DNA from: a virus | Lineage: Duplodnaviria > Heunggongvirae > Uroviricota > Caudoviricetes | IMG/VR virus record: IMGVR_UViG_3300020451_002055 | DNA: 64,000 nt | Strand: one strand, 5' to 3' | In this document: piece by piece, positions 9,808 through 48,922 of the stretch | Layout: each line of letters starts with the position of its first letter | Numbering within the stretch: position 1 is the first letter of the stretch | Notes under the pieces: model-generated | Seen by the model: the letters and a program-made list of their open reading frames with translations, nothing else | Told to the model about the DNA's origin: nothing | The model's database searches: none | Translations under genes and position numbers: made by a program

Positions 9808-9815
9808 GGAATGAA

Positions 9816-26127: not shown

Positions 26128-27006
26128 TTATCCACGCCGATTCTTACGAGATCGACGATGCTGGCCGATGCTCTCATTCGAGTCAAGAATCTGCTGTATC
26201 AGATTCGCATCGTATCCTAGATTTTTGGCGTGCCTGCAAATCGCAGAAACGTCCTTCGGAAAGCATTTGCCTCCAAACGGCTTTTCTGACTCCTTGAAGA
26301 CCGCAGTATGCATCGGATTGATACGAGGGTCCATAAGCCATGCTTCACGCATTGCATAGTAATCAACGCCCATTCTTTCGCATAGCTCATTAATCTCATA
26401 ACAGAAAGTAACCTTCAAAGCAAAGAACGTGTTCTCGACATATTTCGTAAGCTCCGCAACAAGGGCTTCGGTCTGATGGTATATCTTAGTAGGCCCAACC
26501 ACTTTGATAAAGAACTCAACGCATTGCTTCGTGTCTTTGGAATCGCCGCCGAAGATGAACCAAGGAGTCTCCTTGACATCTTGATGAAACTTGTATTCGG
26601 TCCAGTATCTTGATTCTCCGCAAAACTCAGGAGAGAAAACAATATTCTTGCCGGTCTCTTCTTTCAGCTTGTCGGTAGTACCTGGCTCAATAGTCGATTT
26701 GATCAGAAACAGAGGAGCATCGATTTCCCGAATAGCCTCTTCAACAAGTCGAGTGTCACATGCCCCATCCTCTTCCCTCGGAGGAGTCGGCAGGCACACC
26801 ACGACAAGATCGCAGCCCTTGGCGTCCTCATATCGATGGCTGAAAGTCTGAGGAGGTCGCCCATCGCTAGGACTTTGATTGGTTACGGGTCCGTTAGACG
26901 CAACTTCCTTATACTTGATATCGACGATAACAAGTTCATAGTGATCAGCAAAGAACTCCTTCATTGCTTTACCAACGTAGCCCTCTCCAATGATGGCGAT
27001 CTTCAT
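26128..27006 (-). CDS. UDP-glucose/GDP-mannose dehydrogenase family, lacking C-terminal domain
   Basis: IIGEGYVG, CLPTP, IKST, FSPEF, ELTKYVEN, FGGKCFPKD. Confidence 0.9.
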   Translation of the reverse strand: MKIAIIGEGYVGKAMKEFFADHYELVIVDIKYKEVASNGPVTNQSPSDGRPPQTFSHRYEDAKGCDLVVVCLPTPPREEDGACDTRLVEEAIREIDAPLFLIKSTIEPGTTDKLKEETGKNIVFSPEFCGESRYWTEYKFHQDVKETPWFIFGGDSKDTKQCVEFFIKVVGPTKIYHQTEALVAELTKYVENTFFALKVTFCYEINELCERMGVDYYAMREAWLMDPRINPMHTAVFKESEKPFGGKCFPKDVSAICRHAKNLGYDANLIQQILDSNESIGQHRRSRKNRRG

Positions 27007-27095: not shown

Positions 27096-27821
27096 ATGAA
27101 CATTTTGATACCGATGGCAGGTTTAGGTAGCCGTTTCTCAGAGGCAGGATATGATGTTCCTAAGCCTCTGATTGAGTTTCATGGCAAGACCATGATTCAG
27201 CATGCCGTAGATACCCTCGGAGTAGAAGGGCAGCTAATCTTCTGTGTCCACGCAGATCATTGCAACGAACACGGTCTAGATCAGAAGCTATTGGAGTTCT
27301 ATCCAGACTGCAGAATTGTTGTTACCGACGAACTAACAGACGGCCCGGCATCGACTTGTATGCTTGCTCGGATGTGGTTCGAGAACGATGATCCTCTCAT
27401 CATGACAAACTGCGATCAGTATATGATGTGGAACGGCTCAGAGTTTCAATCGTTCCTTGACGAAACAGATGCAGATGGCGTTCTTGTGACATATTACACG
27501 GACGTTGAGCATAACAGCTACGCAAAAGTCAATGACCAGGGGCTTGTTACTCTTGTCAGAGAGAAAGAAGTCATCAGCAGATATTCTACGAACGGCATCC
27601 ATTATTGGAAGAAGGGCCGTTCATTCTGCCAGTCGTATGATGAGATGGTCAGGCAAGATGATAGGACAAATGGAGAGTTTTATGTCGCTCCGAGCTATAA
27701 CTACCTCATAGAACGGAACTTCAAGATACGCATCTACGACATAGACCCGAGTCTGCATCACGCAACAGGTACGCCAGATGATTTGAACAGGCTACTAGGC
27801 ATTTTGAAGGATGAAGCATGA
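27096..27821 (+). CDS. NTP-transferase-fold (sugar nucleotidyltransferase-like) protein
   Basis: MNILIPMAGLGSRF..GY..PKPLI, NCDQ, EKEVIS, NGEFYVAP, GTPDDL. Confidence 0.88.
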   Translation: MNILIPMAGLGSRFSEAGYDVPKPLIEFHGKTMIQHAVDTLGVEGQLIFCVHADHCNEHGLDQKLLEFYPDCRIVVTDELTDGPASTCMLARMWFENDDPLIMTNCDQYMMWNGSEFQSFLDETDADGVLVTYYTDVEHNSYAKVNDQGLVTLVREKEVISRYSTNGIHYWKKGRSFCQSYDEMVRQDDRTNGEFYVAPSYNYLIERNFKIRIYDIDPSLHHATGTPDDLNRLLGILKDEA

Positions 27822-28141
27822 AGGTAATGAAAATGAGCGAGATGAAAGGCGGCTGGTTCACTGGCGATTTTGAGCCGACCGCATTTCGAACCAAAGACTT
27901 CGAGGTTTGTTACAAGGTACATGCCAAAGGCGAGCAATGGCCGAAACACTACCACAAAGAAGCAACAGAGATCAACTATCTGATTCGAGGTCGTATGAGA
28001 ATCGGAGAAACGGAACTTGAGCAAGGAGACATCTTCGTCATTGAGCCGAATGAAGTTGCCGATCCCGAGTTCCATGAGGAGTGCGAACTAATCGTCGTCA
28101 AAACCCCTTCGGTCATTGGCGACAAGTATGAGGTTGACTGA
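27818..28141 (+). CDS. Cupin-domain protein
   Basis: KGGWFTGDFEP, HYHKEATE, GDIFVIEP. Confidence 0.85.
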   Translation: MKVMKMSEMKGGWFTGDFEPTAFRTKDFEVCYKVHAKGEQWPKHYHKEATEINYLIRGRMRIGETELEQGDIFVIEPNEVADPEFHEECELIVVKTPSVIGDKYEVD

Positions 28142-29323
28142 ATGCGTATCTTTCGAAACAGCTATGATTTGGATAGCTATTTCATAGCAGACTTCTATGT
28201 TGAGTCATCTACCAATCTAAGAGACGCAGCATGGAACATTGCTATAGGGCAAAGCGTTGGGAACCCCAACGTCCGCAACAAATGGGAAACGGACGAGCTA
28301 TTCGAAAATCATTCATGCTTCATCATAGATAGCGAGGAACGGCTAGCTTCTATTCAAAGAGGCTACGTCAAGATAGCATACCCGATCAAGAACATCAACT
28401 GGAAAGAAGATGGAGTATCTCAGCTTCTATGTCACCTAATGGGAGGGCAGCTTGACATCGATATCATACGAGCATGCCACCTCGTTGATCTAACCCTTCC
28501 TGCTCATGTTGAAGAACAGTTTCCTAAGCCCAAGTACGGGATCAAGGGTATACGAGACTTTACCGGTGTTCATGGGAAACCTTTGCTCGGAGGCATTGTA
28601 AAACCGAAGACCGGACTATCTCCCGAGGCCCTGCTTGACATCGTTGCTCAGATGGTTGAAGGCGGAGTCAACTTCATCAAAGAAGACGAGATCATGGCTA
28701 ATCCGGAGTTCTGCACAATAGGGCAAAGGCTTCCGGCAATCTCAGACTATCTTCAAGGCAAGAACGTAATCTACTGCGTCTGTATCAATGGAGACTATCC
28801 GTATATCTTTGACCGCGCAAAACAAGTCGCCGACCTTGGCGGCAATGGCATACATATCAACTTCTGGTCAGGTTTTGGAACCTACAAAGCAGTCAGAGAG
28901 CTTGACCTACCCTTGTTCATGCATTTCCAAAAGAGCGGAGACAAGATACTGACCGATAGCAGTCATCGGTTCCATATCAAGTGGACGGTCATCTGCAAGC
29001 TAGCGGGCCTAGTTGGAACGGACTTCATACATGCGGGCATGTGGGGCGGCTATATGTCGGAAGACGAAGGCAGTCTAACAGATGTTCTCGATACTCTGTA
29101 TCAGTATGATGTCATGCCCGCCCTTAGCTGCGGCATGCATCCCGGCCTAGTCAGCGCCATCGAATCAAGGTTCGGAACAAAATGGATGGCGAACTGCGGA
29201 GGCAGCATACATGGTCATAGGGATGGAACGAAAGCAGGAGCCCTTGCTATGTCGCAAGCAATCTCGGGCGAGCATGGACCAGAATATGATTGGGCCGTCA
29301 AAGAATGGGGACTGATTCAGTAA
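28142..29323 (+). CDS. RuBisCO-like protein (form IV, non-carboxylating)
   Basis: GGIVKPKTGL, GVNFIKEDE, DFIHAG, PALSCGMHPG, GGSIHGH..G..AGA. Confidence 0.93.
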   Translation: MRIFRNSYDLDSYFIADFYVESSTNLRDAAWNIAIGQSVGNPNVRNKWETDELFENHSCFIIDSEERLASIQRGYVKIAYPIKNINWKEDGVSQLLCHLMGGQLDIDIIRACHLVDLTLPAHVEEQFPKPKYGIKGIRDFTGVHGKPLLGGIVKPKTGLSPEALLDIVAQMVEGGVNFIKEDEIMANPEFCTIGQRLPAISDYLQGKNVIYCVCINGDYPYIFDRAKQVADLGGNGIHINFWSGFGTYKAVRELDLPLFMHFQKSGDKILTDSSHRFHIKWTVICKLAGLVGTDFIHAGMWGGYMSEDEGSLTDVLDTLYQYDVMPALSCGMHPGLVSAIESRFGTKWMANCGGSIHGHRDGTKAGALAMSQAISGEHGPEYDWAVKEWGLIQ

Positions 29324-29937
29324 TGTACGGTCTCAAATACATACCCGATTTAGGAAGTCAAGAAAAGAACGACCAAGACTATCCCTACATATGGAAGGAA
29401 GTCGCTCAAGAGTTCTCTGTCAGAAACCATGAAGTCCTGCGAGATCAACTGCTGTCCATTAAAGACCGCTGCGATGTCATACTTGAAATAGGCGTTGCTC
29501 GAAACGGAGAGCAATCATCATTCAAAAGCATCGTAGAAAACAAGAAGAACGATGCTATATATCTCGGAGTAGATATAGAAGATCGATCATGGATAGCGGA
29601 TATACCGAACAACATCTACTTCGTTATGACAAACTCATCTCATACGAAGTTTATCATGGACGAAGTTGAGCGTCTCTCTGGTAAGAGGGAAATCGATCTG
29701 CTTCATATCGATGGATGGCATTCTGTCAATCAGATAGTTGATGACTTCAAGTTCGCAGAATATCTCAGTCCGCATGGCATCATAGTCTGCCATGACACCT
29801 CTGCTCATCCAGGTCCGATTGAGCTATTCAAAGCTCTAGATGAAGACGTATTCGTTGGTCAGACTTTCTTTTCAGAACGCAACGATGACTGGGGTATCGG
29901 AATCATCAAGAGAGTTGCTGCTGACGCTCTCGAATGA
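29323..29937 (+). CDS. Class I SAM methyltransferase (Methyltransf_24-like)
   Basis: ILEIGV, GVDI, IDLLHIDGWHS, GIIVCHDT; TAATG overlap with RLP. Confidence 0.8.
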   Translation: MYGLKYIPDLGSQEKNDQDYPYIWKEVAQEFSVRNHEVLRDQLLSIKDRCDVILEIGVARNGEQSSFKSIVENKKNDAIYLGVDIEDRSWIADIPNNIYFVMTNSSHTKFIMDEVERLSGKREIDLLHIDGWHSVNQIVDDFKFAEYLSPHGIIVCHDTSAHPGPIELFKALDEDVFVGQTFFSERNDDWGIGIIKRVAADALE

Positions 29938-30595
29938 TATTGCGGATACCCTTTGTCAGGACAACCTTCGATTCTGTTGGCTTGATATCATCAAAGTATC
30001 GAAGACCACACATGATTCGACCTTCATGCTCCCAAGGGTCTCTCGAAGTCAATGCTTTCTCGATGTAAGAACGATCGACTTCTTGTCCCATCCATGCATA
30101 AATATCCGATGCCTGGTTGATAGGGTCTTCGATGAGCTTGCTGTAGTCTACGACATACGGATCAGTAACAGTCGGAAGCCATTTCGAGACGACGGGCACT
30201 GAGTCGAAATAGTCATTGACGCAGTTCGCTGGCTTGTGACCAAACGTTTTGACCTGCGAGTTGATAGCCCCCATTGGGTCTCGAACGATATGGATAACCT
30301 TGGCTTCGGGAAACAGACTGAGCATCTTCTTGACGCTCTGCCTTGCCTGCTTGAATGTTGAATACGGAATCTTCTGACCGGAACGAATGGACATGATGGC
30401 TCCGGTCTTTTTCTTGGCCTGAGTCGCATCGTATGTCATTGTCTTGATAGCATGCTCTCTCGACTTGGCATCAAGAAGAAGCTTCCTTCGTTCATGGACC
30501 AACTCATACTTGAGGCCTGGATGCATAGATACTACTCGCCTCAGAAGCGTAGTGCCCGATCGCTCGTATCCTATGATCAAGAATGGAGTGTTCAT
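29906..30595 (-). CDS. Sulfotransferase family protein
   Basis: 5'-PSB IIGYERSGTTLL; 3'-PB IHIVRDP..AINS; YSKLIEDP. Confidence 0.85.
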   Translation of the reverse strand: MNTPFLIIGYERSGTTLLRRVVSMHPGLKYELVHERRKLLLDAKSREHAIKTMTYDATQAKKKTGAIMSIRSGQKIPYSTFKQARQSVKKMLSLFPEAKVIHIVRDPMGAINSQVKTFGHKPANCVNDYFDSVPVVSKWLPTVTDPYVVDYSKLIEDPINQASDIYAWMGQEVDRSYIEKALTSRDPWEHEGRIMCGLRYFDDIKPTESKVVLTKGIRNIIRERQQQLS

Positions 30596-31326
30596 AGAGA
30601 GTGCCTCACGCTGAATATCTCATCTGACAAACCGACTAGTTCGTCGTCCTCGAAAATTTTGCGGTAGACCGCATTGTCTCTAAACGCTTGCCATCGATTG
30701 AATAGATCGTTCTTGTTCAAAGACTTTGTTCCGGTAAAGCTGCTGCCGCCTCCATGAGCAGGAACGTAGTCTATCTGAGCGTCCTTGAAGTTTAGGTGCA
30801 AACTCTCTGCCAACTGTTTCCGGTAATCCTTACTGATGGCCCATTCATTGTAGTTGATGAACCTCGAAGACGCAGGCAGAATAGATGTATGACCCAACGA
30901 TTCATAAGCAAGAGCCTTCCATTCTGGTATGATCTTGTCGTATATGTATTCATCTCTTGCTTCGTTTGCTTTTCCCTTAGACGGGTATAGCTTCGCTTCT
31001 TTATTCTGCCAGTTCTTCAAAAACGAAGCCATCATATTGTACGGGTCTCTCAGCGAATAGAGGATAATCCTATCTGACAGAGATGAGAAGGCAGGTATCT
31101 CCTTGCTCATCCTATCAAACTCGGATAGGCAGCATTGATGCTTACCGTGCTGAACGTTCTCTCGCAACACCCTTACCGAGCCGTCATTCATGTCCTCATT
31201 GAAATAGGCTCTCATGCCGTTCTTGGTCAGCATTTGGACATCGCCCTCTATCTCTCCGAGTATCCAATACAAGACGGCGTTTCCGCCGCCTCTGCCCATG
31301 CAAAAGAGATAGATATGCCGATACAT
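30592..31326 (-). CDS. Divergent sulfotransferase-like protein
   Basis: FCMGRGGGNAV, LRDPYNMMAS, INYNEW, GGGSSF; TGATG coupling. Confidence 0.6.
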   Translation of the reverse strand: MYRHIYLFCMGRGGGNAVLYWILGEIEGDVQMLTKNGMRAYFNEDMNDGSVRVLRENVQHGKHQCCLSEFDRMSKEIPAFSSLSDRIILYSLRDPYNMMASFLKNWQNKEAKLYPSKGKANEARDEYIYDKIIPEWKALAYESLGHTSILPASSRFINYNEWAISKDYRKQLAESLHLNFKDAQIDYVPAHGGGSSFTGTKSLNKNDLFNRWQAFRDNAVYRKIFEDDELVGLSDEIFSVRHSL

Positions 31327-31985
31327 CAACCAATGCCCTTCCAAGTGGCCCCGTTTGTAGTCCAATGATGAGTGCATTCCATAGAGGGGTCGTAGAGTAT
31401 CTTGCGATCTGCCTCAATAACATCTTTGGCCCAATAGCGATCCTCTTTGCCGTAGAGTTCTTCGTCAAACGGAAACTCCTGAAGAACCGACTTGCGGTAG
31501 CATGCCATGGCATTGTGCAAGAACCACCTATCTTCTTCCTCTGCCCATGGATTTTCTTTGGGCTCTGCTCCAAAGTTGTGCCATATGTACCTTCTGCTAA
31601 TCCGTCTGCCTTTGTAAACTGGTATCTGCTTGCCAAAAACAGAAGCATATGACTTGAGCTTTTCCTCAATGTCCGACGCATCAAAACGAGTAATGATACA
31701 ATGAGCAGAGAGTATCATTAGATGTTCATTGCTCGCCATCTCGACAGCATGATTGATCGAACGACCAGGAGAGTAGTCCTCTATACTTCCAACCTTGATG
31801 TCATGCCATTTCTCGAACATGCGAACGATATCCATTGAATCATCGCTGCTATTGTTGTCCATGACGATGATCTCAGGATCTCGTAGCGAATCAACAACAG
31901 ACTGAATAGCATAGCCAATGAACCGCTCCTCGTTGCGGTTTCGGATGATTACGGAGTAGTTAGGACCATCTTCCTGCATAGACAT
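31326..31985 (-). CDS. Glycosyltransferase family 2
   Basis: SVIIRNRNEE, MDNNSSDDS, LSAH, FDEEL..KEDRYW. Confidence 0.88.
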   Translation of the reverse strand: MSMQEDGPNYSVIIRNRNEERFIGYAIQSVVDSLRDPEIIVMDNNSSDDSMDIVRMFEKWHDIKVGSIEDYSPGRSINHAVEMASNEHLMILSAHCIITRFDASDIEEKLKSYASVFGKQIPVYKGRRISRRYIWHNFGAEPKENPWAEEEDRWFLHNAMACYRKSVLQEFPFDEELYGKEDRYWAKDVIEADRKILYDPSMECTHHWTTNGATWKGIG

Positions 31986-32745
31986 CTCTCGCTTCCTGCT
32001 CGCACTGTTGGTAATCTCTGCCTCGATCTACTTGCATGAGGTTGACTTCTCTCATGTAGTTGGCAATGATTTCGAGGTCTTCCGGAAGCAAAGCGAACTT
32101 GTTATCTCGACCCGGAAGAGTCTTGTCAGTAGTGAAATGCTTTTCGATGTATTCGCAACCCATGGTTGCTGCAGCGATAGCATCGAAGTATCCATCGTAG
32201 TGGCCGCTATAGCCAACTCTAGGAGTCAAAGATCGAAGACCTTCGATGCGTTGAAGGTTGACCTGATCTGCGGGACAAGGGTAAGAGGAGACGCAATGCA
32301 GCAGAACAACATTGCCGTACTCCGCCCATCTGCTTGCTTCTTCGAACTTAGTGGCTCCGGTTGAGATAAGGACGGTATTGAACATATTGATGGCTTCAAG
32401 AACAAGCTCTTCGTTCGTGCATTCCGTGCTAGCTATCTTGACCATATCGCCAAGCTCCCGAATCATCGGAAGGTCGGCTTTATTGAAACATGATGTTAGA
32501 AAACCAATGTTCGCATCTCTGCAGAAATCTGCAAGCTGATGATGCTGATCTCTATTGATTTGAGCCTTCTCGTATATCTGGCGACGACCGTCGTCGTCCC
32601 AAGGTCCGGACTTCAGATTGTCAACGCTCCAAGTCTGAAACTTGGCGTAGTCTGCTCCGGATTGAGCAGCAGCAAATACCATAGACTTAGCCAAATCCAT
32701 GTCGCCCATATGATTCCAGCCGATTTCTGCGATTAGCTTAGACAT
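31960..32745 (-). CDS. neuB: NeuB-family ulosonic acid synthase 1 (no SAF domain)
   Basis: IAEIGWNHMGD, AKFQ, KIAS, ISTG, LHCVSSYP, GYSGH, IEKHFT. Confidence 0.9.
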   Translation of the reverse strand: MSKLIAEIGWNHMGDMDLAKSMVFAAAQSGADYAKFQTWSVDNLKSGPWDDDGRRQIYEKAQINRDQHHQLADFCRDANIGFLTSCFNKADLPMIRELGDMVKIASTECTNEELVLEAINMFNTVLISTGATKFEEASRWAEYGNVVLLHCVSSYPCPADQVNLQRIEGLRSLTPRVGYSGHYDGYFDAIAAATMGCEYIEKHFTTDKTLPGRDNKFALLPEDLEIIANYMREVNLMQVDRGRDYQQCEQEARDVYAGRWS

Positions 32746-33385
32746 GTGATCCTTTCTCATTGAACCAAAGGGTATCTTGCCTGAACTTAGAGCAAGATAC
32801 GAATCCGATTTCCTCAAGAAGCCCTCTCAGGCTATCTTCGGAAGATTCAATCAAAAGCCACTTGGCTTTGGCTACAGCTTCTTTGCCATGGGCAACAATG
32901 ATCTCATCCGCTTCTTCAGCGTCAATTTTGATAAAGTCAGGTTGAACTTTATTTACTTTCGACCAATCATCTAAAACCTTGAAAGAAGCCATGCAAGCAA
33001 GCTTATCTGCTCCGACTCTGTACAGTCCAGTGTTCTGAACATCGTTTCTTTCTTGGGGTATACCCATTTGCAGATCAGCTTCTTCTTTCCAAAAGCCAAA
33101 GTTATGCAGATTGATATCGCAACCATACTTGGTCGCCTTAGATACATGCTTGCTAAGATACTCGAAGTTAGAACCAACAGGTTCAAAAGCGTGTATTACG
33201 GAACCCGGAAATGCTTCAGCAAAGGCCAGAGTATAGATACCCATGTTGGCTCCTATGTCCAATACTGTTTCAACCGAACAGCCTAAACCTGATTCCAGCA
33301 TGTATTCTTTGCAGCCTCGAACAGCCCTATAGTTGGCCTGAACAAGCTTCGGATTGACCATGTAATGATCTGACCACATGCCCAT
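32738..33385 (-). CDS. FkbM-family methyltransferase
   Basis: LDIGANMG, AFEP, FIKIDAE. Confidence 0.85.
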   Translation of the reverse strand: MGMWSDHYMVNPKLVQANYRAVRGCKEYMLESGLGCSVETVLDIGANMGIYTLAFAEAFPGSVIHAFEPVGSNFEYLSKHVSKATKYGCDINLHNFGFWKEEADLQMGIPQERNDVQNTGLYRVGADKLACMASFKVLDDWSKVNKVQPDFIKIDAEEADEIIVAHGKEAVAKAKWLLIESSEDSLRGLLEEIGFVSCSKFRQDTLWFNEKGSHV

Positions 33386-34164
33386 TAGCTTATCTCCTTA
33401 ATGTTTCCGCGTTCATCTACTTCTACAAAGCTTGAGTTTATCAGTTTGTTTCGAATGCCTTTTGGAGATGAACCCTTGGGGTTCTTTGTCTTCCAGCTTT
33501 CCACCCAAGGAGAAGGATGCAACTCTTCTATACTTGGCAATAATATGTCTTCATCCAAAAGCTCATTCAAAATGAACATAGCGTTGTTAGACTGAGTATC
33601 TGAAGGCAGCACGAAAAAGAGAGAATACCCATGAGCTTTGAGTAGATTATTGAAAGCGGCCAAAGAAGCCCCATAGTTTGAAGTACTATCTTTCCGGTAT
33701 TTTGCGTTGTATCTAACCGTGTAAGCCTGATCGTGCCTGAATACAGGATTGAACTCGACAACAATGATGCTAGCTATATATCCTGCTGACAAGACCGCAT
33801 GTAGGACATAAAAGTCCATGCTGTCAATATCGAGAGATAACAGATCAACTCTTTTAGGAGTTTCATACTTCTCCAAAAGAGAAACGATATTGTCCGGAGT
33901 CATCCATTCCTTATGAACAGAAGGGTGAGCGCCTCCCTTGGGGGCTCCGTCCATCTCGGTAGTCTTCCATCCTCGCGAATCTGCTAGGTGCCTGACATTG
34001 CTTCCTCTAATGCCGTTACCGCAACCTATGTCTATCGCAAACTTGTTGTCATCTGATATATAACGAAACACTTGATCTAGTATGCAGTCTTCGTTTGCTT
34101 CTGCGTACCAATTTCCAGAAGAACATGGGGACAAAGTTCTAATCCAGTTGCTATCTGAGTTCAT
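33385..34164 (-). CDS. FkbM-like methyltransferase
   Basis: IDIGCGNG..SN, DLLSLDIDSMD, VEFN, YGASL. Confidence 0.75.
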   Translation of the reverse strand: MNSDSNWIRTLSPCSSGNWYAEANEDCILDQVFRYISDDNKFAIDIGCGNGIRGSNVRHLADSRGWKTTEMDGAPKGGAHPSVHKEWMTPDNIVSLLEKYETPKRVDLLSLDIDSMDFYVLHAVLSAGYIASIIVVEFNPVFRHDQAYTVRYNAKYRKDSTSNYGASLAAFNNLLKAHGYSLFFVLPSDTQSNNAMFILNELLDEDILLPSIEELHPSPWVESWKTKNPKGSSPKGIRNKLINSSFVEVDERGNIKEIS

Positions 34165-35114
34165 GAAGGATTCCTATCAAACCATTGGTTTAGCTTATCA
34201 GCGATTCTGCCATACGCCATTTCTTGAGCTTCGATGCTCATTCCTCCGATATGAGGGGTAACAAGGATATTAGCTCCACCATGCATTGCCGCGAGTATTG
34301 GGCTGCCAGCTATATCTCCTTGTTCGTTCGCAAGAACATCAGTTGCATAACCCTTGAGATAGCCCATCTTGAGTGATTGCACCACATCTTCTTCGTCAAC
34401 TATCCCTCCGCGAGATGTATTGATGAGATAGCATCCATCAGACCTGCAGAATAGAGACTCGTCGATCATGTTATGAGTGGCTTCATCATGATGGACATGA
34501 ATGGCAACGATGTCGCATTCTTCAAATATCTCTTCTATCTCGACTTGCTCATATCTAGAGGGAGCAGGAACGAATGGATCGCATATTAGCACTCTCGATC
34601 CAAATGCATTGCAATAGTCTGCGTACATTGAGCCCAGCCTGCCGTATCCGATTACTCCAACCGTCAGCCTGTTCATCTGCCTGCCTACATATGGTTTGTA
34701 ATCCCAACGCCCGTCTCTGACTGATTCTGCAGCATCATTAATGTTGCGAACAATGCTAAGCGTTAGGCCGAAAGCAAGCTCTGCAGTTGAACTGATGTGC
34801 TTGATGGTCTGATAGTCAGTTGTCAGACTGATGATTTCTATGCCAGCTTCTTTGCAGAACGCCTTGTCAATATGGTCGGTCCCGGTAGAGGCAGTTGCTA
34901 TGACCTTGACGGACGAGCCTTCAAGCAATGCTCGGTCAAGCTTGTATGTCTGCTTGTTGGGATTGACGAAAAGAGCAGTAGGCTCTAGTTCGCTGATCAG
35001 AAACTTAGCCTTGTCCATATCCGCATCGGGATAGTTGAACGCCTGAGCTTTCTGCTTTAGCTTTCCGACAACTCCGGGTATATGATCTACAGGCGTCAAG
35101 CAAAGGGTCTTCAT
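34161..35114 (-). CDS. D-isomer-specific 2-hydroxyacid dehydrogenase
   Basis: STGTDHID, IGYGRLG, INTSRG, TPHIGG. Confidence 0.9.
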   Translation of the reverse strand: MKTLCLTPVDHIPGVVGKLKQKAQAFNYPDADMDKAKFLISELEPTALFVNPNKQTYKLDRALLEGSSVKVIATASTGTDHIDKAFCKEAGIEIISLTTDYQTIKHISSTAELAFGLTLSIVRNINDAAESVRDGRWDYKPYVGRQMNRLTVGVIGYGRLGSMYADYCNAFGSRVLICDPFVPAPSRYEQVEIEEIFEECDIVAIHVHHDEATHNMIDESLFCRSDGCYLINTSRGGIVDEEDVVQSLKMGYLKGYATDVLANEQGDIAGSPILAAMHGGANILVTPHIGGMSIEAQEMAYGRIADKLNQWFDRNPS

Positions 35115-35812
35115 TCCATCCCTCTTCTCTGTTCCAATATGGCAGCGGCAACGATGAGATCGAGCGGCTCATCAATGTTCAGCGTTCTTTCTTCGGGCAT
35201 GATGTATGCCAATGATTCTTTATCGTACCTTGACCTAGATGACAGCAAGAAGTCTTTTGTCATTGCATAGATAGAGCCATTTCTAACATAGGCAGCAGGC
35301 GTCAAGTCCTGTCTTCTGGTCTCCGGAATCTCCGGATAGAAGTCATTCATCTTCCCATTGTCCGACAGAAACTTGACTCTAGAGGGGTGGTGATCGTATA
35401 TTCTGACAACAGAAACAGCGGAGTGAGATTCCCTATCATCAAGCATTTCAATCACGCCGTCGATATCCTCTGCTATCTTCAGAGGATTGGTAGCCATGAT
35501 CTCAACAATGTAGTCATAGTCGTCTTGGATGGTCTCGACAGCATGAATCAATGCATCGGCAGAAGTTGCGGTGTCGCTCGCCAAGTCAGAAGGCCTCTCA
35601 ATCGTATCAACAGAAGAAGCCAAGGCGACTCCAATGATATCAGGATCGTCGGTAGAAACAACATATCGATCTATGTAGTTGCTGCCCTTGACAGCATCGA
35701 AGGTATATTCGATAAGCGGGCGACCATCGAGGTCGATAATGTTCTTGCGAGGCACTTTCTTGGAGCCTCCTCTCGCAAGAGTTACAGCTAGAACCTTCTT
35801 GCCATTGATCAT
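35111..35812 (-). CDS. neuA: CMP-ulosonic acid synthetase 1 (NeuA family)
   Basis: ARGGSKKVPRKN, VSTD, RP, RRQDL, NGSIY, NIDEPLD. Confidence 0.92.
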   Translation of the reverse strand: MINGKKVLAVTLARGGSKKVPRKNIIDLDGRPLIEYTFDAVKGSNYIDRYVVSTDDPDIIGVALASSVDTIERPSDLASDTATSADALIHAVETIQDDYDYIVEIMATNPLKIAEDIDGVIEMLDDRESHSAVSVVRIYDHHPSRVKFLSDNGKMNDFYPEIPETRRQDLTPAAYVRNGSIYAMTKDFLLSSRSRYDKESLAYIMPEERTLNIDEPLDLIVAAAILEQRRGME

Positions 35813-36759
35813 GTCATACTTAGCGTGCCCGAGTTTGGATCGTGGTTGTAGAACCGTTCAAGCAGCGTCCCCTTATACCTGCCTACTACCTTGCCGAATG
35901 ATTTGCGGTTGCCCCATTCAAAGCCCCACTTGCGTTTCCATATGTCAAGATGCTCCGCTTGTTCAAAGTAGTAGTTGTTCTCTTTGTTCTTCGTATATTG
36001 AGCGGAGTTGCGAGGAAGACCCATTTCTTGCTTGAGGTCTGGTCTGTGTTCTATGTAGAGATCAGGCAAAGCTACATTGTAGATGTTCTGTTTCAAGAAC
36101 TGAAAGCATACATCGTCCCATCCCAAATGAAATCTCAAGTCTTGGTCTGGTTGTATATTCTCTAGGTAGGATTGAACGTTGACCCCTATTGCGAACCAGG
36201 CCACTGACTCAATAGGAAAAGGCTTGCGATACTGCTTGTTCATACTAACTGCGGGATACAACTTCGGCCTAGCAGAATAGGACGAATACCATGCATAGCC
36301 TTCAAGGGGCGCTCTCGCCATAACTCCAAGCGGTCTGCCGCCTTTCCGCATGACCTTCATATGCTTACCGTGATTCTGAACCGTATCGGTAGCAAGAGCA
36401 TTGAAGCCGATAGTTCCGTATTCATCGAGGTCGCCCGCTTCTATCTTGCCTTTCAGTTTCTCGAAGAAGTCAGATTCAATGGGCCAGCAATCATGCTGAA
36501 ACCATAGCATCCATTTGATTCCTTGCTCCGCGAAATATCTGGCTGCTTGATGGGCGTTGTTCTGAACTCCGGGCACATCGCGATCTAGGTACTTGATGCC
36601 TTGAGCTTCGCAGAATTTTTGGCCGATGGCTCGCTGCTCTTCATCAGAGCCTTCATCAATATTGAGAACCGGGCAACCGCATGAAGACATATGAGGCCAC
36701 CAATGCTTTTCGAAGAAAGCATAGTTGTTCTTACTGACGACGTATACGCCTACGCTCAT
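35809..36759 (-). CDS. GT-A fold glycosyltransferase-like
   Basis: IDEGS, FQHDC, WDDVC; island context. Confidence 0.6.
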
Positions 36760-37808
36760 TCGGTCTCCGATCGAACGATGTCTTGGATGATCGCCTTGAT
36801 GTCATACTGACGCTGCCAGTTCGGGTAATGGGTCTCGAACTTGCTCGTATCCGATATCCACCAAAGATGGTCTCCAACTCTGTTCTGTTCTTGATAGCTG
36901 TAGTCAAGCTTCTTGCCCGAGAATTCTTCAGCCATGGAGATCGCTTCGAGCATAGAGCAGTTCGAGTATCTGCTGCCTCCAATGTTGTAGACCTCTCCGC
37001 TTCGAGGGTTCTTGTAGAACTCGTAGAAAGCGGTAGCCAAGTCATGAGAATGTATGTTATCTCTGACTTGCTTACCCTTGTATCCGAAGACCGTATACGG
37101 CTTGCCATGAACAACGCATTTGACCAAGTAGGAAAGGAAGCCATGAAGTTCGACGCCGGAATGACATGGACCAGTCAAGCAGCCACCTCTGAAGCAGGCG
37201 GTATTGAGATCGAAGTAGCGACCATACTCTTGAACCATAACATCTGCAGCAACCTTGCTCGCCCCAAAGATGCTGTGGGTTGAGTTGTCAATCGAAAGCG
37301 TTTCATCGAAACCTTGGTAGAACTCGCTTCTCAACGGAGCTTCGTACCTCGTCTCAAGTTCTTCATACTCGAAGATGTTAGGCCTGTCTCCATAGACTTT
37401 GTTGGTTGATGTAAAGATGAAAGAAGCTTCGGGCGAATGTTGCCTGTAAGCTTCGAGCATATTCATTGTTCCTACCGCATTGACGCCGAAGTCCGTATGA
37501 GGCTCTTTGGCTGCCCAATCATGAGAAGGCTGAGCGGCGCAATGAACAACGAGATCAATGTCCGAGTTGAATCTGCTGAAGACTTGATCTATCGCGTCCT
37601 TGTCTCTGATGTCGGCATTCATATGGACATATGAGTCGTAGTCCTGCAATTTCGATACCATGCCATCTGTTGATCCTCGATCCCCAAAGAAGTAAGAACG
37701 CATGTTGTTATCGATACCAACAACTTCAAAGCCTTTGTTCAAGAAGAACAAACAAACCTCTGAACCAACAAGGCCTCCTGATCCTGTAACGATAACTACC
37801 TTAGACAT
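36756..37808 (-). CDS. CDP-paratose 2-epimerase-like extended SDR
   Basis: [33 protein letters not shown]. Confidence 0.88.
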
Positions 37809-38481
37809 CTGACACCTCGCTTGCCATTTTAGAAAGAATGGTAATGACTTCCGTAGAAGTCTGACTCCAATCGTTGCTGTTTATACGACCAAGAAGTTCT
37901 ATGTTGTCTTGCAAGCTTTTCATGAGTTGCTGCTTCTGGTCAACCGGGTAAACCTTGCGGCCTTCAAGATTAAGAGAGATCGGAATGCCTTTGGTTTCCG
38001 CTTGGGAAAAGTCCCAATGGTCCGAATGCTCGGTTCTGCGGAAGTCCCAAGGATGGATAGCTGCCAAGCCTGCGTTCTCCATAAATCGAGTCAGGCTAGC
38101 CTCATCAAAGAGCATGTAATGGAAGTTTTGCTCATAGGTCTGTCCTCCCATGAAGGGGCCTATGACCGATGAAATATCTCCGCAAGACTGGTATATCTCG
38201 ATGAGACGCTCTAGGGAAGGAACGGATACTCGCAGCAGTCCTCCGGGCTTGAGAACCCTGACCCATTCGGTCAAGATGGACTGTATATCGCTTCGCTTGA
38301 AATGCTCAAGAACATGAGCCACATATACCATGTCAAAGGTATCATCTTCAAACTGATCGAGAGGGTAAATGTCGCCCTCATGCTGAACGCCCGGAATGTT
38401 CCTGATATCCATGTTCTCGAACGGCTCGGGCAGGATGACGGTCCCGCAGCCCAAGTGTAGATATCGCTTACTCGTACTCAT
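37801..38481 (-). CDS. SAM methyltransferase (type 11-like)
   Basis: [23 protein letters not shown]. Confidence 0.85.
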
Positions 38482-39566
38482 TTTAGTAGCCTCGCAATAG
38501 TTGTCATGTAAGTTTCGGTTGCGTTGAAATCCTCGCCTCCGGACAAGGTATCCCTAATGAACGACAAATCTCTACCTGACTCCTCTTGATCCTGCAGAGT
38601 ATTCGCTATCTTGGTTGAGTCCAAAGGAACCAGTCCTTGGAACCCCTTCAAACTCCCAATCATGCCGTATCCATCTAATACGGCTGTTGGTATGCCTAAC
38701 TGGATAGACTTGAACGCCAAAGTTGATGGAGCAGACACTACATACTTAGAGTCCGCTATAAGTTGATTATCGTCATCTACGTCGTAAATGCATTCTACAT
38801 TTGGGTATTTGCTGAGAGCTTTTCGGAGAGAATCGCATTGCCTGCTCTTCGGAAACCGGCTCTTCTCTTTGACTATGATCTTGCAGCCAGTCTTTTCTGA
38901 AAGCTCTAATACTCCGGACTCGACGAATCTCTCTTCATGAAAGAAGAGGTATCCTGTCTCTTTCTGGTCCTTCTTTCTCGTGTAGTTAGGAATGACCAGT
39001 ATATGCTTTTGATTCAGATCATAAGAAGATAGGTCATCATTGCTAGGAACTCCGCCGGGAAATATCTTGTCGGAAGCTCCCCATTCTCTGCAATCCTTCG
39101 GCCCAAAAACGAACGAGTAGTCGTAGGCCCATCCGATCTGTCTATGGATGTAGCCGTCATACTCTCTATTGCCATGAGGACATGCAACTACAGGTATGTC
39201 GAAATGCTTTGCCCATCTATAGATAGCAGGCGTTCCTCTCGCTACTTTGCAAAGGTTGTCATCAAAGATGATCAGATCATACTTCTTGAAGTCGATACCT
39301 CGACATAGAGCTTTTCCATTCTCGCAGCTTTTAGCTAGCTCTTTGAACGTAGCTCCCTCAAAGACTTGGCCGCAGACCCTTTTGCATAGATCGTAGAATG
39401 GATGCCTTACGTCAACATCGCCCGCCCAAGGAGTGCCCGGACTCATCTGTCCAAGCAGAAGAACATCGCAACCGTATTTCTCGGCAAGGGGTTCAACAAG
39501 GGGGTATACTTTCTCTCCGCATCGATAGATGGTCGCAACTAGAAGTACGCTCACTTCTTCTCCCAA
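38478..39566 (-). CDS. GT-B fold glycosyltransferase-like (possible ulosonate transferase)
   Basis: PHG, FG, GVPSND, LIADS..VVSAPST..FKSI.LGIP. Confidence 0.6.
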   Translation of the reverse strand: MGEEVSVLLVATIYRCGEKVYPLVEPLAEKYGCDVLLLGQMSPGTPWAGDVDVRHPFYDLCKRVCGQVFEGATFKELAKSCENGKALCRGIDFKKYDLIIFDDNLCKVARGTPAIYRWAKHFDIPVVACPHGNREYDGYIHRQIGWAYDYSFVFGPKDCREWGASDKIFPGGVPSNDDLSSYDLNQKHILVIPNYTRKKDQKETGYLFFHEERFVESGVLELSEKTGCKIIVKEKSRFPKSRQCDSLRKALSKYPNVECIYDVDDDNQLIADSKYVVSAPSTLAFKSIQLGIPTAVLDGYGMIGSLKGFQGLVPLDSTKIANTLQDQEESGRDLSFIRDTLSGGEDFNATETYMTTIARLLK

Positions 39567-40177
39567 GAGGTAAATCTTGCTTTCGTCTTAGGCCTTTGGA
39601 AATCGCTCTTAGACAGCCAAGGCCTGCCTGTATCCTTGATGATGGGGCGCTTGCCCATGCAGGTTATATTCTTGGGAAATATGCCGTCTACTCGCAACTG
39701 AACTTCAGGATTCAGTTCTTCATTCAACTTGCCCGCAAATCTCTTATACAGAGACTTCCTCCATACGCTAGGGCTCAAGCATAGAGACTTGTAAGGATAC
39801 TTGTAAGCTCGAAAAGCGACCTCAAGAATGTCCGGATCATCGAATCTCTTGAGAACATCATTCATGCCGATAGATCGGAGAAGCTCCCAATCGTCTTCAA
39901 GATGGAATATGTAATCCGAATCGGCTTGAGACCAGAGCCAGTTTACGGCTGCGGTAAAATTGGGCTTATCAGGAGTTCGGTGAACTACATTGCCAAAGAA
40001 GCTCTTGGCGACTTCAAGGGTAGCCTGTTGCTTCTCAGCTTCCGGAACGGGATCGATGTTGATGTATAGGGTGGACTTGGAAAAGTCAATACCCGTTAGG
40101 TTGGAACTGAAAGACTCGTATGTCTTACGGAGTATCTCAGGACGGGAGCATGCTGTTGTAGTGAAAGAGACATTCAT
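39551..40177 (-). CDS. Glycosyltransferase family 2-like
   Basis: TACSRPE.L, INID, IFHLEDDW. Confidence 0.75.
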   Translation of the reverse strand: MNVSFTTTACSRPEILRKTYESFSSNLTGIDFSKSTLYINIDPVPEAEKQQATLEVAKSFFGNVVHRTPDKPNFTAAVNWLWSQADSDYIFHLEDDWELLRSIGMNDVLKRFDDPDILEVAFRAYKYPYKSLCLSPSVWRKSLYKRFAGKLNEELNPEVQLRVDGIFPKNITCMGKRPIIKDTGRPWLSKSDFQRPKTKARFTSWEKK

Positions 40178-41130
40178 ACCTGTTTGAGTATCCTTTCCTT
40201 GCAGGCAGCTATAGAAAGATGACTGTCGTAATAAGCCCTAGGCTGATACGATTCAAGATTGCCGAGGACTTCTCGAACAGCCTCGAAGAACTCTCCCTTT
40301 GCTGCCATCTTGCCTGTATGGTCATTGATATATCTATCCTTCCATACATGAACAGAGTTCAGGCAGACTATTGGCGTATCGCAAGCCAAAGACTCTGGTA
40401 TGACGCGAGGACAAGAATCATACGAAGTAGAGCAGCAGACTGCTATTTTGGCCTGAGCGTAGTAGGATGGCAAATCTTTGCGAGGCAGACGCTTTCTTGT
40501 AAACGTGACATGAGGGTTATTGTTGACTATGCCCTTTGGAGTATTCCCTACAACTAATGCCTTCAAGTCTTTGGGCAAGTTCTCCAAGAAGAAGTCAAGG
40601 CCCTTCATTCTCGCATGATTTACGGAGAACATAATGTCATACTTGACATCGCCATCTACCGGTCTGAAGATATTTTCTGCCGCGGGCTTGATAAGAAGAT
40701 CGCTCTTGATCTGAGGAAACTTCTTCTTGGCCTCCTCAAGCTGACGCTCCGAGTCAACGAGTATGAGGTTGTAACCTTTGAAGTCAAACTTGGGCAAATA
40801 CCGGACGCCTGCTCCGTAGTATATCTTGAAAGCGTTGGGGTGACGCCTGAGAACCTGATCGTATGGTTTGAAGCCGCCTCTACAGAAAATGATGTCAGGA
40901 TCAAAGTCATGCTTCGTAGAACCGAATGAAGGTATCCATCTCTCTATGAAGTTGTCAGCGAACTTCTTTTTACGGGTTCCGTCCCAATACCATATCTGAC
41001 CGCTACCATCCTTAGCTATCTCGTAAGCTAACTGAGTCCACATATCATCGTTGTCTTCTATCCTGTCAAAGACAATCTCTTGCGGATTTCTGTCTTGAGG
41101 AACTTGCCCTCTCAGGAATAGAAGCTTCAT
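40174..41130 (-). CDS. Glycosyltransferase (GT4-like)
   Basis: RMKG, DSCPRVIPESLACDTPIV. Confidence 0.8.
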   Translation of the reverse strand: MKLLFLRGQVPQDRNPQEIVFDRIEDNDDMWTQLAYEIAKDGSGQIWYWDGTRKKKFADNFIERWIPSFGSTKHDFDPDIIFCRGGFKPYDQVLRRHPNAFKIYYGAGVRYLPKFDFKGYNLILVDSERQLEEAKKKFPQIKSDLLIKPAAENIFRPVDGDVKYDIMFSVNHARMKGLDFFLENLPKDLKALVVGNTPKGIVNNNPHVTFTRKRLPRKDLPSYYAQAKIAVCCSTSYDSCPRVIPESLACDTPIVCLNSVHVWKDRYINDHTGKMAAKGEFFEAVREVLGNLESYQPRAYYDSHLSIAACKERILKQV

Positions 41131-42047
41131 CTCTTGCCCTCCGAAATCAGATGTTCAATATGAGCCGTCAGTTTTCTCATATTGGTCGGGCGGTCGCCGA
41201 TCTTTTCCTTGATAGTCTTTTCTGCGTTTGACTGAAGCCTGTTTCGTAAAGCTTCATCCTCCATAAGACGCTTTACGTCTGATGCCCCTTGCTTGATGGC
41301 TCTCGCTCTATAGACCATACAGGTCTCATCGTTGATTCCGTAGTCCGCATTGCCGCTTTGGGGGTGATCGGTAAGAACCAGGGCGGCTCCGCATAGGGTA
41401 GCTTCTATAGGAACATTCTGAAGCCCCTCGTTCTCGCTCGCTGATACCCAGACAGCGCATGAGCTATAGAAGTCTCGCAACTCATCGACCTTGCCGGAAC
41501 GGATATCCCGATTGAGCATGCGAGAGGAGTATCCCGCTCTCTTGGCAATGTCTAAACAGTCTTTGGATCGCTTGGATTGCTTGGGGTGAGAAATGCCGCC
41601 GACGACGAGATCGGCAGGCCTTGAACGATACCATTGATCAAAGTCAATGCCTTGATAAATGACCTTGGAATCTGTGCCCCTTCGTTTCAGTTCTTCATGA
41701 ATCCAACTTGAGTTGGTAACTACATTGATCGAAGCATAGGTATCCCATAAGACATGATCCTTGGCTTGCCAAACCTCATGACCTCTTACATACCAGAGTT
41801 TTGTCCTTGCTCCGCGAAACTTCTTTGTCGTCTTGACGCTATGGTAGCCGGTTGCTATCAGAGCATCGCACTCCGGTATCTTGCGAACAAAAGGGATGTC
41901 GGTCTTGAACCATGAAGCTCGATTGGCAGTACCGGATATCAATACCTCATGCCCGAGGTCTCGCAGAGTCTCCGCAGAACGAATGATCGTTCTTGACCCT
42001 CCGTTGTTCCCAAGACCTACATCATGAGCATTGAATACGATCTTCAT
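41127..42047 (-). CDS. Glycosyltransferase (GT4-like)
   Basis: NGG....A..L..LGHEV, ENEGLQNVPIEATLCG. Confidence 0.85.
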   Translation of the reverse strand: MKIVFNAHDVGLGNNGGSRTIIRSAETLRDLGHEVLISGTANRASWFKTDIPFVRKIPECDALIATGYHSVKTTKKFRGARTKLWYVRGHEVWQAKDHVLWDTYASINVVTNSSWIHEELKRRGTDSKVIYQGIDFDQWYRSRPADLVVGGISHPKQSKRSKDCLDIAKRAGYSSRMLNRDIRSGKVDELRDFYSSCAVWVSASENEGLQNVPIEATLCGAALVLTDHPQSGNADYGINDETCMVYRARAIKQGASDVKRLMEDEALRNRLQSNAEKTIKEKIGDRPTNMRKLTAHIEHLISEGKR

Positions 42048-42787
42048 TTCTTCTTGCCTCTGGGTTCAGCCTCTCCTATCGGCACGTTGCGAAGAAACAT
42101 GTGGAAGCGATGCTTGCGTTCGTTTCTGTTCTCAATCCATTCAACTCGGTTCTCAAACTGCTCAGAAAGAGGCACATCATATCTTCTCATTTGCTTGACT
42201 TTGTATGTATGATGAGACCCCTTACGAGGTTCTAGGTTGCCCGATTTGCTATGGCTCTTCCAGAAGTTCTCATGCTGAACTTGAGTTTCTTGTCCCGGGT
42301 CGGCTGCGTGTAGACTGATTATCGAGAAATCTTGCTCCCTATTGAGCTTTCTCTTTTGCATGGCTTTCTCGTAATTCCAATCAATGCGACCCTGCTTAGC
42401 CGCCTTGAAACCTCCTAGCGCTCTAACTCGTTTAGTATCGTAGACCTTGAACGACCAAGGGGTAGCAGAAGACCAATGCTCGAACAGTCTCCATTCCCAA
42501 AGACCAGCCTGCCTTTTCTTCTGTTCCGGAGCATGAAGAAGGCACCAACTCATATACTCAATAGCTCTAGGATGCATAAGGAAATCGTCATCGATCTTGA
42601 CAAAATGCCTGGTCGGACACTTCTCAAGAACCTCATTCATTGCATCAACCAAAGGCCTGTTGTGATACTCGAAGATAGGTAGCGATACGGTCTGTTCTTC
42701 GAAAGACTTGTAAGCCCATTCAAAAGTAGGTCTACCGCCGGTGAAGATGTAGGCAGTCAACGGAATATGAGGGTCAACTTTGTTCAT
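42044..42787 (-). CDS. GT-A glycosyltransferase-like, paralog A
   Basis: FVKIDDDFLMHPRAIEY. Confidence 0.7.
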   Translation of the reverse strand: MNKVDPHIPLTAYIFTGGRPTFEWAYKSFEEQTVSLPIFEYHNRPLVDAMNEVLEKCPTRHFVKIDDDFLMHPRAIEYMSWCLLHAPEQKKRQAGLWEWRLFEHWSSATPWSFKVYDTKRVRALGGFKAAKQGRIDWNYEKAMQKRKLNREQDFSIISLHAADPGQETQVQHENFWKSHSKSGNLEPRKGSHHTYKVKQMRRYDVPLSEQFENRVEWIENRNERKHRFHMFLRNVPIGEAEPRGKKK

Positions 42788-44222: not shown

Positions 44223-44224
44223 GA

Positions 44225-45199: not shown

Positions 45200-45209
45200 G
45201 CTAGTCTCC

Positions 45210-46253: not shown

Positions 46254-46264
46254 AACTTCCTTCG

Positions 46265-47345: not shown

Positions 47346-47347
47346 TG

Positions 47348-48921: not shown

Positions 48922-48922
48922 A

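What the first reader, a model, noticed from the sequence alone, without database searches (positions are those of the whole stretch)
27096..29937. Inverted four-gene cassette puts a re-wired RuBisCO-like protein inside a phage glycan-biosynthesis island
Seen: NTP-transferase-like, cupin, RLP and SAM methyltransferase genes are tightly coupled (ATGA overlap, abutting, TAATG overlap) on the strand opposite the rest of the island. By eye against form I numbering, the RLP keeps K175/K177 (KPK), K201/D203/E204 (KEDE), H327 and the SxG and GG phosphate loops. It has lost E60 (AIGQS), N123 (MGGQ), H294/R295 (HFQK) and loop-6 K334 (GGYMS). Established: K334 and H294 are needed for carboxylation. Characterised RLPs are salvage or catabolic enolases, isomerases or transcarboxylases (MtnW, MTRu-1P isomerase, apionate and hamamelose pathways). 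Inference: here the RuBisCO fold is used biosynthetically to rearrange a phosphorylated (acid) sugar. The cupin would isomerise it and the NTP-transferase activate it, giving an unusual, possibly branched or methylated, glycan building block. I know of no characterised role of this kind.
Basis: partly seen in the sequence, partly recalled or inferred. Interest (0 to 1): 0.88.

Follow-up and report, generated by a model that had tools for sequence, protein, structure and literature searches.

The report
Phage RuBisCO relative in sugar-activation module
A giant marine phage carries a relative of the CO2-fixing enzyme RuBisCO that lacks the residues needed to fix CO2; across viruses, SAR11 bacteria and tiny archaea it travels with a sugar-activating enzyme and stands where related gene sets have a sugar phosphatase, so it probably rearranges a sugar phosphate to build a surface-glycan unit, a job not yet shown for this enzyme family.

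Summary
In detail: four coupled + strand genes (BcbE-like nucleotidyltransferase, cupin, RuBisCO-like protein, methyltransferase) lie inverted in a glycan island of a 487-kb marine contig, probably a jumbo phage. The RLP keeps the Mg/carbamate core, but E60, N123, H294 and K334 are replaced, almost invariantly across 230 homologues. It is neither a carboxylase nor MtnW or OiaX. It very probably belongs to the published 'Form IV-like' phage/Beckwithbacteria clade (Jaffe 2019), whose function is unknown. In 111 homologous loci the nucleotidyltransferase is present in 106, a GDPD-like phosphodiesterase in 91 (missing from this window), the cupin in 71 and the methyltransferase in 25; RLP fusions to the first three partners exist. 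Among 160 loci picked by the phosphodiesterase, 86 carry a HAD phosphatase, 12 the RLP and none both, and SAR11 genomes show the same swap; but this rests on only about four evolutionary switches. Best reading: an enediolate-type sugar-phosphate isomerase feeding a nucleotide-activated (possibly ketose) donor. Pathway role about 85%, exact chemistry about 40%; nothing is assayed. The inversion is incidental. This scan noted the same clade before on other DNA.

The parts
27096..27821 (+). BcbE-like sugar nucleotidyltransferase (241 aa); core partner of the RLP
   Evidence: Pfam NTP_transf_3 and NTP_transferase; best solved relative 4EVW, E 1e-16; present in 106 of 111 RLP loci, within 1.5 kb in 104
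27818..28141 (+). Small cupin (107 aa), HxH...E motif, second-motif His absent; probable sugar isomerase (inferred)
   Evidence: Pfam cupin just under cut-off; best PDB sequence hit a cupin named mannose-6-phosphate isomerase, E 4e-5; in 71 of 111 RLP loci; fused to the transferase in giant-virus loci
28142..29323 (+). RuBisCO-like protein of the 'Form IV-like' clade (393 aa): KPK, KEDE, FQK, GGY, SCG signature
   Evidence: pLDDT 93; Z 44 to form III RuBisCO
29323..29937 (+). Class I SAM methyltransferase (204 aa); optional partner
   Evidence: Pfam Methyltransf_24 and RMNT_CmcI; family in 25 of 111 RLP loci
26128..27003 (-). Flanking short NDP-sugar dehydrogenase (NAD-binding and central domains only), divergent from the cassette; not part of the conserved module
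   Evidence: its cluster occurs in 7 of 112 loci
29906..52025 (-). Surrounding glycan island: sulfotransferase, GT2, two NeuB/NeuA sets, FkbM-like methyltransferases, epimerase, several glycosyltransferase-like genes
   Evidence: genes beyond 40.2 kb were read by eye, not scanned

Best explanation
The RLP is the front-end enzyme of a mobile module that makes a nucleotide-activated building block for a surface glycan (about 85% for this much). Shown by computation: RuBisCO fold, clade-invariant re-wired active site, linkage and fusion to a BcbE-like nucleotidyltransferase, a mini-GDPD phosphodiesterase and a cupin, and mutual exclusion with a beta-phosphoglucomutase-type HAD phosphatase. Inferred (about 40% for the whole chain): (1) carbamylated K180 with Mg2+ enolises a ketose phosphate from the host pool, its phosphate held at the distal site (K264, H297). 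(2) Without K334, H294 and E60 no CO2 is added; the enediolate is reprotonated and the carbonyl moves, the cupin possibly doing a second 1,2-shift, giving a ketose 1-phosphate. The HAD version would reach such a product by removing or moving a phosphate. (3) The transferase adds NMP, and the GDPD-like enzyme moves the phosphate to the anomeric carbon through a cyclic phosphate, replacing the kinase of the BcbE/F/G fructose route; a second activation gives an NDP-ketose. (4) WavE-like or related transferases attach it, with optional O-methylation. In this phage the phosphodiesterase must lie elsewhere in the genome, come from the host, or be dispensable.
For: Partners in 111 RLP loci: transferase 106, phosphodiesterase 91, cupin 71, WavE-family 17. 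Fusions RLP-transferase-cupin (P0271, P0272), transferase-RLP (P0080), RLP-transferase (P0121), phosphodiesterase-RLP (P0175, a partial protein), transferase-GDPD (L091). Loci picked by the phosphodiesterase: RLP only 12, HAD only 86, both 0; a HAD motif of any type is in only 8 of 111 RLP loci. In one SAR11 family sample, phosphodiesterase-HAD-transferase in 6 genomes against phosphodiesterase-transferase-RLP in 2. Cultured RLP-less versions sit beside WavE in polysaccharide loci and in cyanophage glycan islands; two cyanophages have a class II aldolase next to the phosphodiesterase, a family that makes ketose 1-phosphates (own knowledge). BcbE is required for the fructose side chain of the P. 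multocida B capsule (PMC13552107). An RLP that moves a ketose carbonyl 1,3 is known in R. rubrum (PMC6302742).
Against: No biochemistry. The RLP/HAD exclusion rests on only about 4 switches on the transferase tree, so the Fisher p values (6e-5, 6e-6) overstate it. In viruses the cupin and methyltransferase go with the RLP version and not the HAD version (10/10 against 4/45; 4/10 against 0/45), so the two versions may make different products. The characterised xylulose-bearing clusters I could read (E. coli O95/O97, PMC7685785; Y. enterocolitica O:10, PMC11380512) are described without such genes. The transferase is only distantly related to the one solved BcbE-like protein and was not compared with P. 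multocida BcbE itself. This window lacks the phosphodiesterase and any WavE-like transferase.
Confidence: 0.42

Rival explanations
1. Same pathway role, but the RLP removes a phosphate by beta-elimination from the enediolate of a ketose bisphosphate, giving a deoxy-diulose phosphate that the cupin tautomerises and the methyltransferase may cap. It would be a 'phosphatase by elimination'.
For: Explains most directly why it excludes a phosphatase. Residues of both phosphate sites are partly kept. Elimination is a known side reaction of loop-6 RuBisCO mutants (own knowledge). Cupin linkage 10/10 in phosphodiesterase-picked viral loci.
Against: No reductase travels with the module to fix the reactive diulose. 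SAR11 and DPANN versions lack the cupin.
Confidence: 0.15
2. Same pathway role, but the RLP rearranges the carbon skeleton (alpha-ketol shift) to a branched sugar phosphate of the hamamelose or apiose type.
For: The RuBisCO site natively fits a 2-C-branched pentitol bisphosphate, and other RLPs act on branched acids (own knowledge). Cupin and methyltransferase are specific to the RLP version.
Against: Does not explain the exclusion of the HAD; a branched aldose would need an anomeric kinase, and no conserved kinase was found.
Confidence: 0.15
3. The RLP is an OiaX-like decarboxylase or transcarboxylase of a 3-oxo acid sugar phosphate, yielding a ketose 1-phosphate for the module.
For: OiaX chemistry gives a ketose 1-phosphate (own knowledge); K264 and H297 could bind a carboxylate.
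Against: NF042437 score 128 against cut-off 700; H294 absent; no four-carbon acid-sugar kinase or conserved dehydrogenase in 111 loci.
Confidence: 0.1
4. The RLP is not in the glycan pathway: it is a metabolic auxiliary gene, or the module decorates something else (DNA, protein, a small molecule), and it only hitch-hikes in glycan islands.
For: Phage glycan islands are mosaics. A few loci lack the transferase nearby (5 of 111, four of them at contig ends or on short contigs).
Against: Multiple independent fusions, and the same module in cellular polysaccharide loci of SAR11, CPR and DPANN.
Confidence: 0.1
5. Methionine-salvage enolase (MtnW) or a CO2-fixing RuBisCO.
For: Best sequence hits in the PDB are MtnW and form III RuBisCO (E about 1e-35); databases label homologues 'ribulose-bisphosphate carboxylase'.
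Against: No K at position 123 and no P at 295 as in MtnW; no E60, N123, H294 or K334. Family scores are far under cut-off. No mtnB, D, E or X homologue in 111 loci or the window. Separate clade, 3.4 substitutions per site from MtnW.
Confidence: 0.03

Closest known systems
'Form IV-like' RuBisCO-related clade of phages and Beckwithbacteria (Jaffe et al. 2019, PMC6389311)
   Same: Divergent RLPs on large phage contigs from IMG/VR, grouped with Beckwithbacteria sequences and apart from other RLPs; function unclear. Here a Beckwithbacteria homologue (L085, 54% identity) falls inside the window's clade.
   Different: The passages I read give no gene-neighbourhood or pathway. Here the clade extends to giant-virus contigs, SAR11 and DPANN and is tied to a nucleotide-sugar module.
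R. rubrum RLP, MTRu-1-P 1,3-isomerase (described in PMC6302742)
   Same: RLP that moves a ketose carbonyl by enediolate chemistry and works with a cupin; the model for the proposed mechanism.
   Different: Catabolic methylthioadenosine salvage on a methylthio substrate; no nucleotidyltransferase. No methionine-salvage genes near our clade. Its sequence was not compared.
MtnW (2,3-diketo-5-methylthiopentyl-1-phosphate enolase) and OiaX (3-oxo-isoapionate-4-phosphate decarboxylase)
   Same: Same fold and K201/D203/E204 core; 26-29% identity.
   Different: Different residues at 123, 177, 294, 295, 327 and 334; scores far below family cut-offs; partner genes absent.
BcbE/BcbF/BcbG fructose-decoration genes of P. 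multocida capsule B (PMC13552107)
   Same: Transferase of BcbE-like type in a polysaccharide locus; BcbE is needed for a ketofuranose side chain.
   Different: That route is thought to use a kinase-like protein and a BcbF-type HAD (own knowledge; S-SKS1 has this set). Our module has neither and uses a GDPD-like enzyme and an RLP.
Uncharacterised phosphodiesterase + HAD + nucleotidyltransferase(s) + cupin + WavE modules of proteobacterial plasmids, SAR11 and cyanophages
   Same: Same transferase (39-43% identity), cupin (40-45%) and phosphodiesterase families.
   Different: A HAD phosphatase stands where the RLP is; I found no described product.

Membership tests
RuBisCO large-subunit superfamily | N-terminal alpha/beta domain plus TIM barrel with K201/D203/E204 | tested here: met
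   Pfam PF00016 and PF02788 over cut-off; model pLDDT 93; TM 0.88 and Z 44 to form III RuBisCO; K180, D182, E183
Carboxylating RuBisCO (forms I-III) | E60, N123, H294, R295, K334 present | tested here: not met
   G36, G102, Q263, K264, Y304; TIGR03326 170 bits against cut-off 497
Carboxylating RuBisCO (forms I-III) | RuBP-dependent CO2 fixation | not testable with these tools
   Needs an assay
MtnW (form IV-YkrW) | Lys at position 123, Pro at 295, family HMM over cut-off | tested here: not met
   G and K instead; NF007095 155 against 409, TIGR03332 123 against 514
MtnW (form IV-YkrW) | Methionine-salvage gene neighbours | tested here: not met
   No tblastn hit of MtnB, MtnD, MtnE or MtnX in 111 loci or the window
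OiaX-type RLP decarboxylase | Family HMM, H294/R295, adjacent four-carbon acid-sugar kinase | tested here: not met
   NF042437 128 against 700; Q/K; no kinase hit
R. rubrum-type MTRu-1-P 1,3-isomerase | Clade membership by sequence | not tested
   No reference sequence was fetched; primary papers not held
R. rubrum-type MTRu-1-P 1,3-isomerase | 1,3-isomerase activity | not testable with these tools
   Needs an assay
Form IV-like clade (Jaffe 2019) | One divergent clade of phage sequences plus Beckwithbacteria, separate from other RLPs | tested here: met
   Clade of 38-39 sequences, FastTree support 1.0, contains L085 and IMG/VR phages, excludes MtnW, OiaX and two other RLP references; profile scores drop from about 280 to 250 bits and below at the clade edge
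Form IV-like clade (Jaffe 2019) | Direct similarity to the published sequences or logo | not testable with these tools
   No supplement or figures held
BcbE-like nucleotidyltransferase | Full-length similarity to a BcbE-like pyrophosphorylase, with IPMAGxGxRF and K23, D107, E156/K157 conserved | tested here: inconclusive
   4EVW E 1e-16; motifs conserved; that 4EVW is BcbE-like is my own knowledge, and no BcbE HMM or P. multocida BcbE was compared
BcbE/F/G fructose module | Kinase-like and BcbF-type HAD partners | tested here: not met
   Kinase 0 of 111, BcbF-like 3 of 111 RLP loci; neither in the window
Canonical RLP module defined here | GDPD-like phosphodiesterase beside the RLP | tested here: not met
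   No hit in the 64-kb window; the rest of the 487-kb contig could not be searched

The most novel reading that the evidence does not exclude
A large clade of RuBisCO-fold enzymes, spread by jumbo phages and giant viruses, catalyses an undescribed anabolic sugar-phosphate rearrangement and, with a nucleotidyltransferase and a mini-phosphodiesterase, forms a kinase-free route to a new class of nucleotide-activated ketose or branched sugars for viral and microbial surface glycans.
Probability: 0.4. Interest if true: 0.85.

Novelty: new variant of a known kind. Interest (0 to 1): 0.62.

Why it matters
It would give a testable function to a RuBisCO-superfamily clade with at least hundreds of members (up to 2,524 database clusters at E 1e-20, a count that may include other RuBisCO forms) that databases label as carboxylases, which could inflate counts of viral carbon-fixation genes. 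It would be the first glycan-building role I know of for the fold, and it points to an uncharacterised route to activated ketoses; the E. coli review states that genes for the xylulose donor are not found in the O95/O97 clusters. The HAD/RLP swap supplies a direct experiment: cultured cyanophages and plasmids carry the HAD version for comparison.

Tried and rejected
No whole genome is held, so the rest of the contig could not be searched for the phosphodiesterase or host clues. The RLP has no match in 50,697 GenBank phage records and no PHROG: no cultured phage carrier found. No clade member among the plasmid hits shown; they are OiaX, MtnW, form I and similar. The HAD-type module DNA was not found in E. 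coli genomes. Six literature searches on RLP with phage or glycan terms gave only Jaffe 2019 as relevant; most subscription papers are not searched, and Tabita 2007, Imker 2008, Erb 2012, Carter 2018 and Nesper 2002 were not held. Promoter, terminator and repeat scans gave chance levels: no sign of an invertible element. The fold search of the mini-phosphodiesterase gave only weak GDPD matches (best E 0.01); the assignment rests on profile hits and the conserved HR...EN...ExD...H residues. A search for beta-PGM-type HADs in five RLP-carrying genomes was uninformative. Rejected: recent insertion shown by composition; the methyltransferase as a core gene; RibB or class II aldolase as RLP partners (no hits). 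No complex prediction was run.
Full report
Observation. The four genes are present as described: nucleotidyltransferase 27096-27821, cupin 27818-28141, RuBisCO-like protein (RLP) 28142-29323 and methyltransferase 29323-29937, all on the + strand, coupled by an ATGA overlap, an abutting stop and start, and a TAATG overlap. The island around them is on the - strand and holds NeuB, NeuA, GT2, sulfotransferase, epimerase and methyltransferase genes. The identical RLP lies on a 486,833-nt Tara Oceans contig. The window has a compact replication block (DnaE- and RecA-like genes by PHROG) but no virion genes; unchecked first-reader notes report neck and tail genes further along the same contig. 'Jumbo phage' is therefore a likely inference that I did not test directly. 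The inversion looks incidental: codon GC of the first three genes matches the core genes and there are no boundary repeats.

The RLP. The model has the full RuBisCO fold (pLDDT 93; Z 44 to form III RuBisCO and about 41 to three RLPs). Mapped on a form I sequence it keeps K175, K177, K201, D203, E204, H327, S379, G381, G403 and G404, and has G for E60, G for N123, Q for H294, K for R295 and Y for K334. These replacements are fixed at 99-100% in 230 homologues, which indicates selection for a different reaction rather than decay. It scores far below the cut-offs for form III, MtnW and OiaX. In a FastTree tree it sits in a clade with support 1.0, more than 3 substitutions per site from MtnW, OiaX and form I; the deeper branching is unresolved. 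The clade includes a Beckwithbacteria protein (54% identity), 249 IMG/VR hits including giant-virus bins, SAR11 and DPANN.

The module. In 111 loci fetched by the RLP, the nucleotidyltransferase is present in 106 (104 within 1.5 kb), a GDPD-like phosphodiesterase in 91, the cupin in 71, an unclassified putative transferase family in 43, the methyltransferase family in 25 and WavE-family proteins in 17. No methionine-salvage gene or acid-sugar kinase was found. Natural fusions join the parts: RLP-transferase-cupin, transferase-RLP, RLP-transferase, phosphodiesterase-RLP and transferase-GDPD. The phosphodiesterase is usually a 147-aa miniature that keeps the GDPD catalytic motif; its profile finds Pfam GDPD proteins and solved GDPDs, though the fold search is weak. 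This window lacks it, as do about 20 other loci, some of them truncated.

What the RLP replaces. The same transferase, cupin and phosphodiesterase occur without an RLP in cultured cyanophages and proteobacterial plasmids, mostly with a beta-phosphoglucomutase-type HAD and often WavE. I picked 160 loci by the phosphodiesterase alone: 86 had this HAD, 12 the RLP, none both, 62 neither; with full flanks the counts were 45, 10, 0 and 14, and 10 of those 14 had some other HAD motif. Conversely only 8 of 111 RLP loci contain any HAD motif, most in a second or unrelated gene. In a sample of 301 Pelagibacteraceae genomes, six have phosphodiesterase-HAD-transferase and two have phosphodiesterase-transferase-RLP. 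Caveat: the transferase tree needs only four switches between the two types, so the samples are not independent and the p values overstate the case. In viruses the cupin and methyltransferase go with the RLP version (10/10 against 4/45; 4/10 against 0/45), so the two versions may not make the same sugar.

Mechanism (inferred). With the carbamate and Mg ligands and K175 but without K334, H294 and E60, the enzyme should enolise a ketose phosphate and reprotonate it rather than add CO2 (established RuBisCO chemistry, own knowledge). K264 and H297, unlike the Pro and Leu of MtnW, suggest an anion at the distal site. An RLP that moves a ketose carbonyl 1,3 between 1-phosphate and 5-phosphate forms is known in R. 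rubrum (PMC6302742). BcbE is needed for the fructofuranose branch of the P. multocida B capsule (PMC13552107). GDPDs work through cyclic phosphates (own knowledge). Two cyanophage modules place a class II aldolase beside the phosphodiesterase. Together these suggest that the RLP, with the cupin, supplies a ketose 1-phosphate, the transferase and phosphodiesterase shift the phosphate to the anomeric carbon without a kinase, and an NDP-ketose is passed to a WavE-like transferase. I put the pathway role at about 85% and this chemistry at about 40%. Against it, the xylulose-bearing clusters of E. coli O95/O97 and Y. enterocolitica O:10 are described without such genes. Rivals are phosphate elimination, skeletal rearrangement to a branched sugar, and OiaX-like decarboxylation.

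Novelty and verdict. The protein clade is published; its link to nucleotide-sugar synthesis was not found in the papers I could search. This scan has noted the same clade and module on other genomes, one note also mentioning phosphatase replacement; I reached and tested that independently before reading it, and those notes are not support. Verdict: a real feature, a new functional variant of a known enzyme kind, untested at the bench and directly testable. Interest 0.62.

Noticed in passing
L116:6001-8733 (cyanophage S-SKS1): The same transferase family is fused to an intact-looking RibB (TIGR00506 over cut-off) and followed by a kinase-like gene and a BcbF-type HAD: a third front end, hinting at ribulose 5-phosphate as substrate.
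   Followed up: partly
L119:11926-13306 and L120:8635-10060 (cyanophages Bellamy, S-SM2): Class II aldolase/epimerase genes sit next to the mini-phosphodiesterase in RLP-less modules.
   Followed up: partly
L143, L162, L291, L295 (near 4800-7500): A small split transketolase-like gene pair lies directly beside the mini-phosphodiesterase in several phage loci lacking both RLP and the PGM-type HAD (read by eye).
   Followed up: no
P0192: A TIR domain fused to a RuBisCO-like protein outside this clade.
   Followed up: no
P0151, P0167: IF-2B-family (ribose-bisphosphate isomerase-like) domain fused to a RuBisCO large subunit.
   Followed up: no
L313 (G276, Pelagibacteraceae): The phosphodiesterase-HAD-transferase module is broken by many stops and frameshifts.
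   Followed up: no
window 26128-27003: NDP-sugar dehydrogenase of 291 aa with NAD-binding and central domains but no C-terminal UDP-binding domain hit.
   Followed up: partly
window 31960-35812 and 46842-50420: Two separate NeuB/NeuA sets; the first has a short NeuB and a 2-hydroxyacid dehydrogenase, the second a KdsC-like HAD, the only HAD motif in the window.
   Followed up: no
window 3260-5917, 9804-10163, 12722-13813, 16896-17678: CCA-adding-enzyme-like, IscA/HesB-like, DnaJ-like and sigma-factor-like genes (read by eye).
   Followed up: no
window 27971-27985 and 29728-29742: A perfect 15-nt inverted repeat inside the cupin and methyltransferase genes; not at the cassette borders, probably chance.
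   Followed up: no
L005, L013, L018, L019, L026, L033, L046: In these loci, several from giant-virus bins, the transferase and cupin are one fused gene lying on the opposite strand to the RLP.
   Followed up: partly
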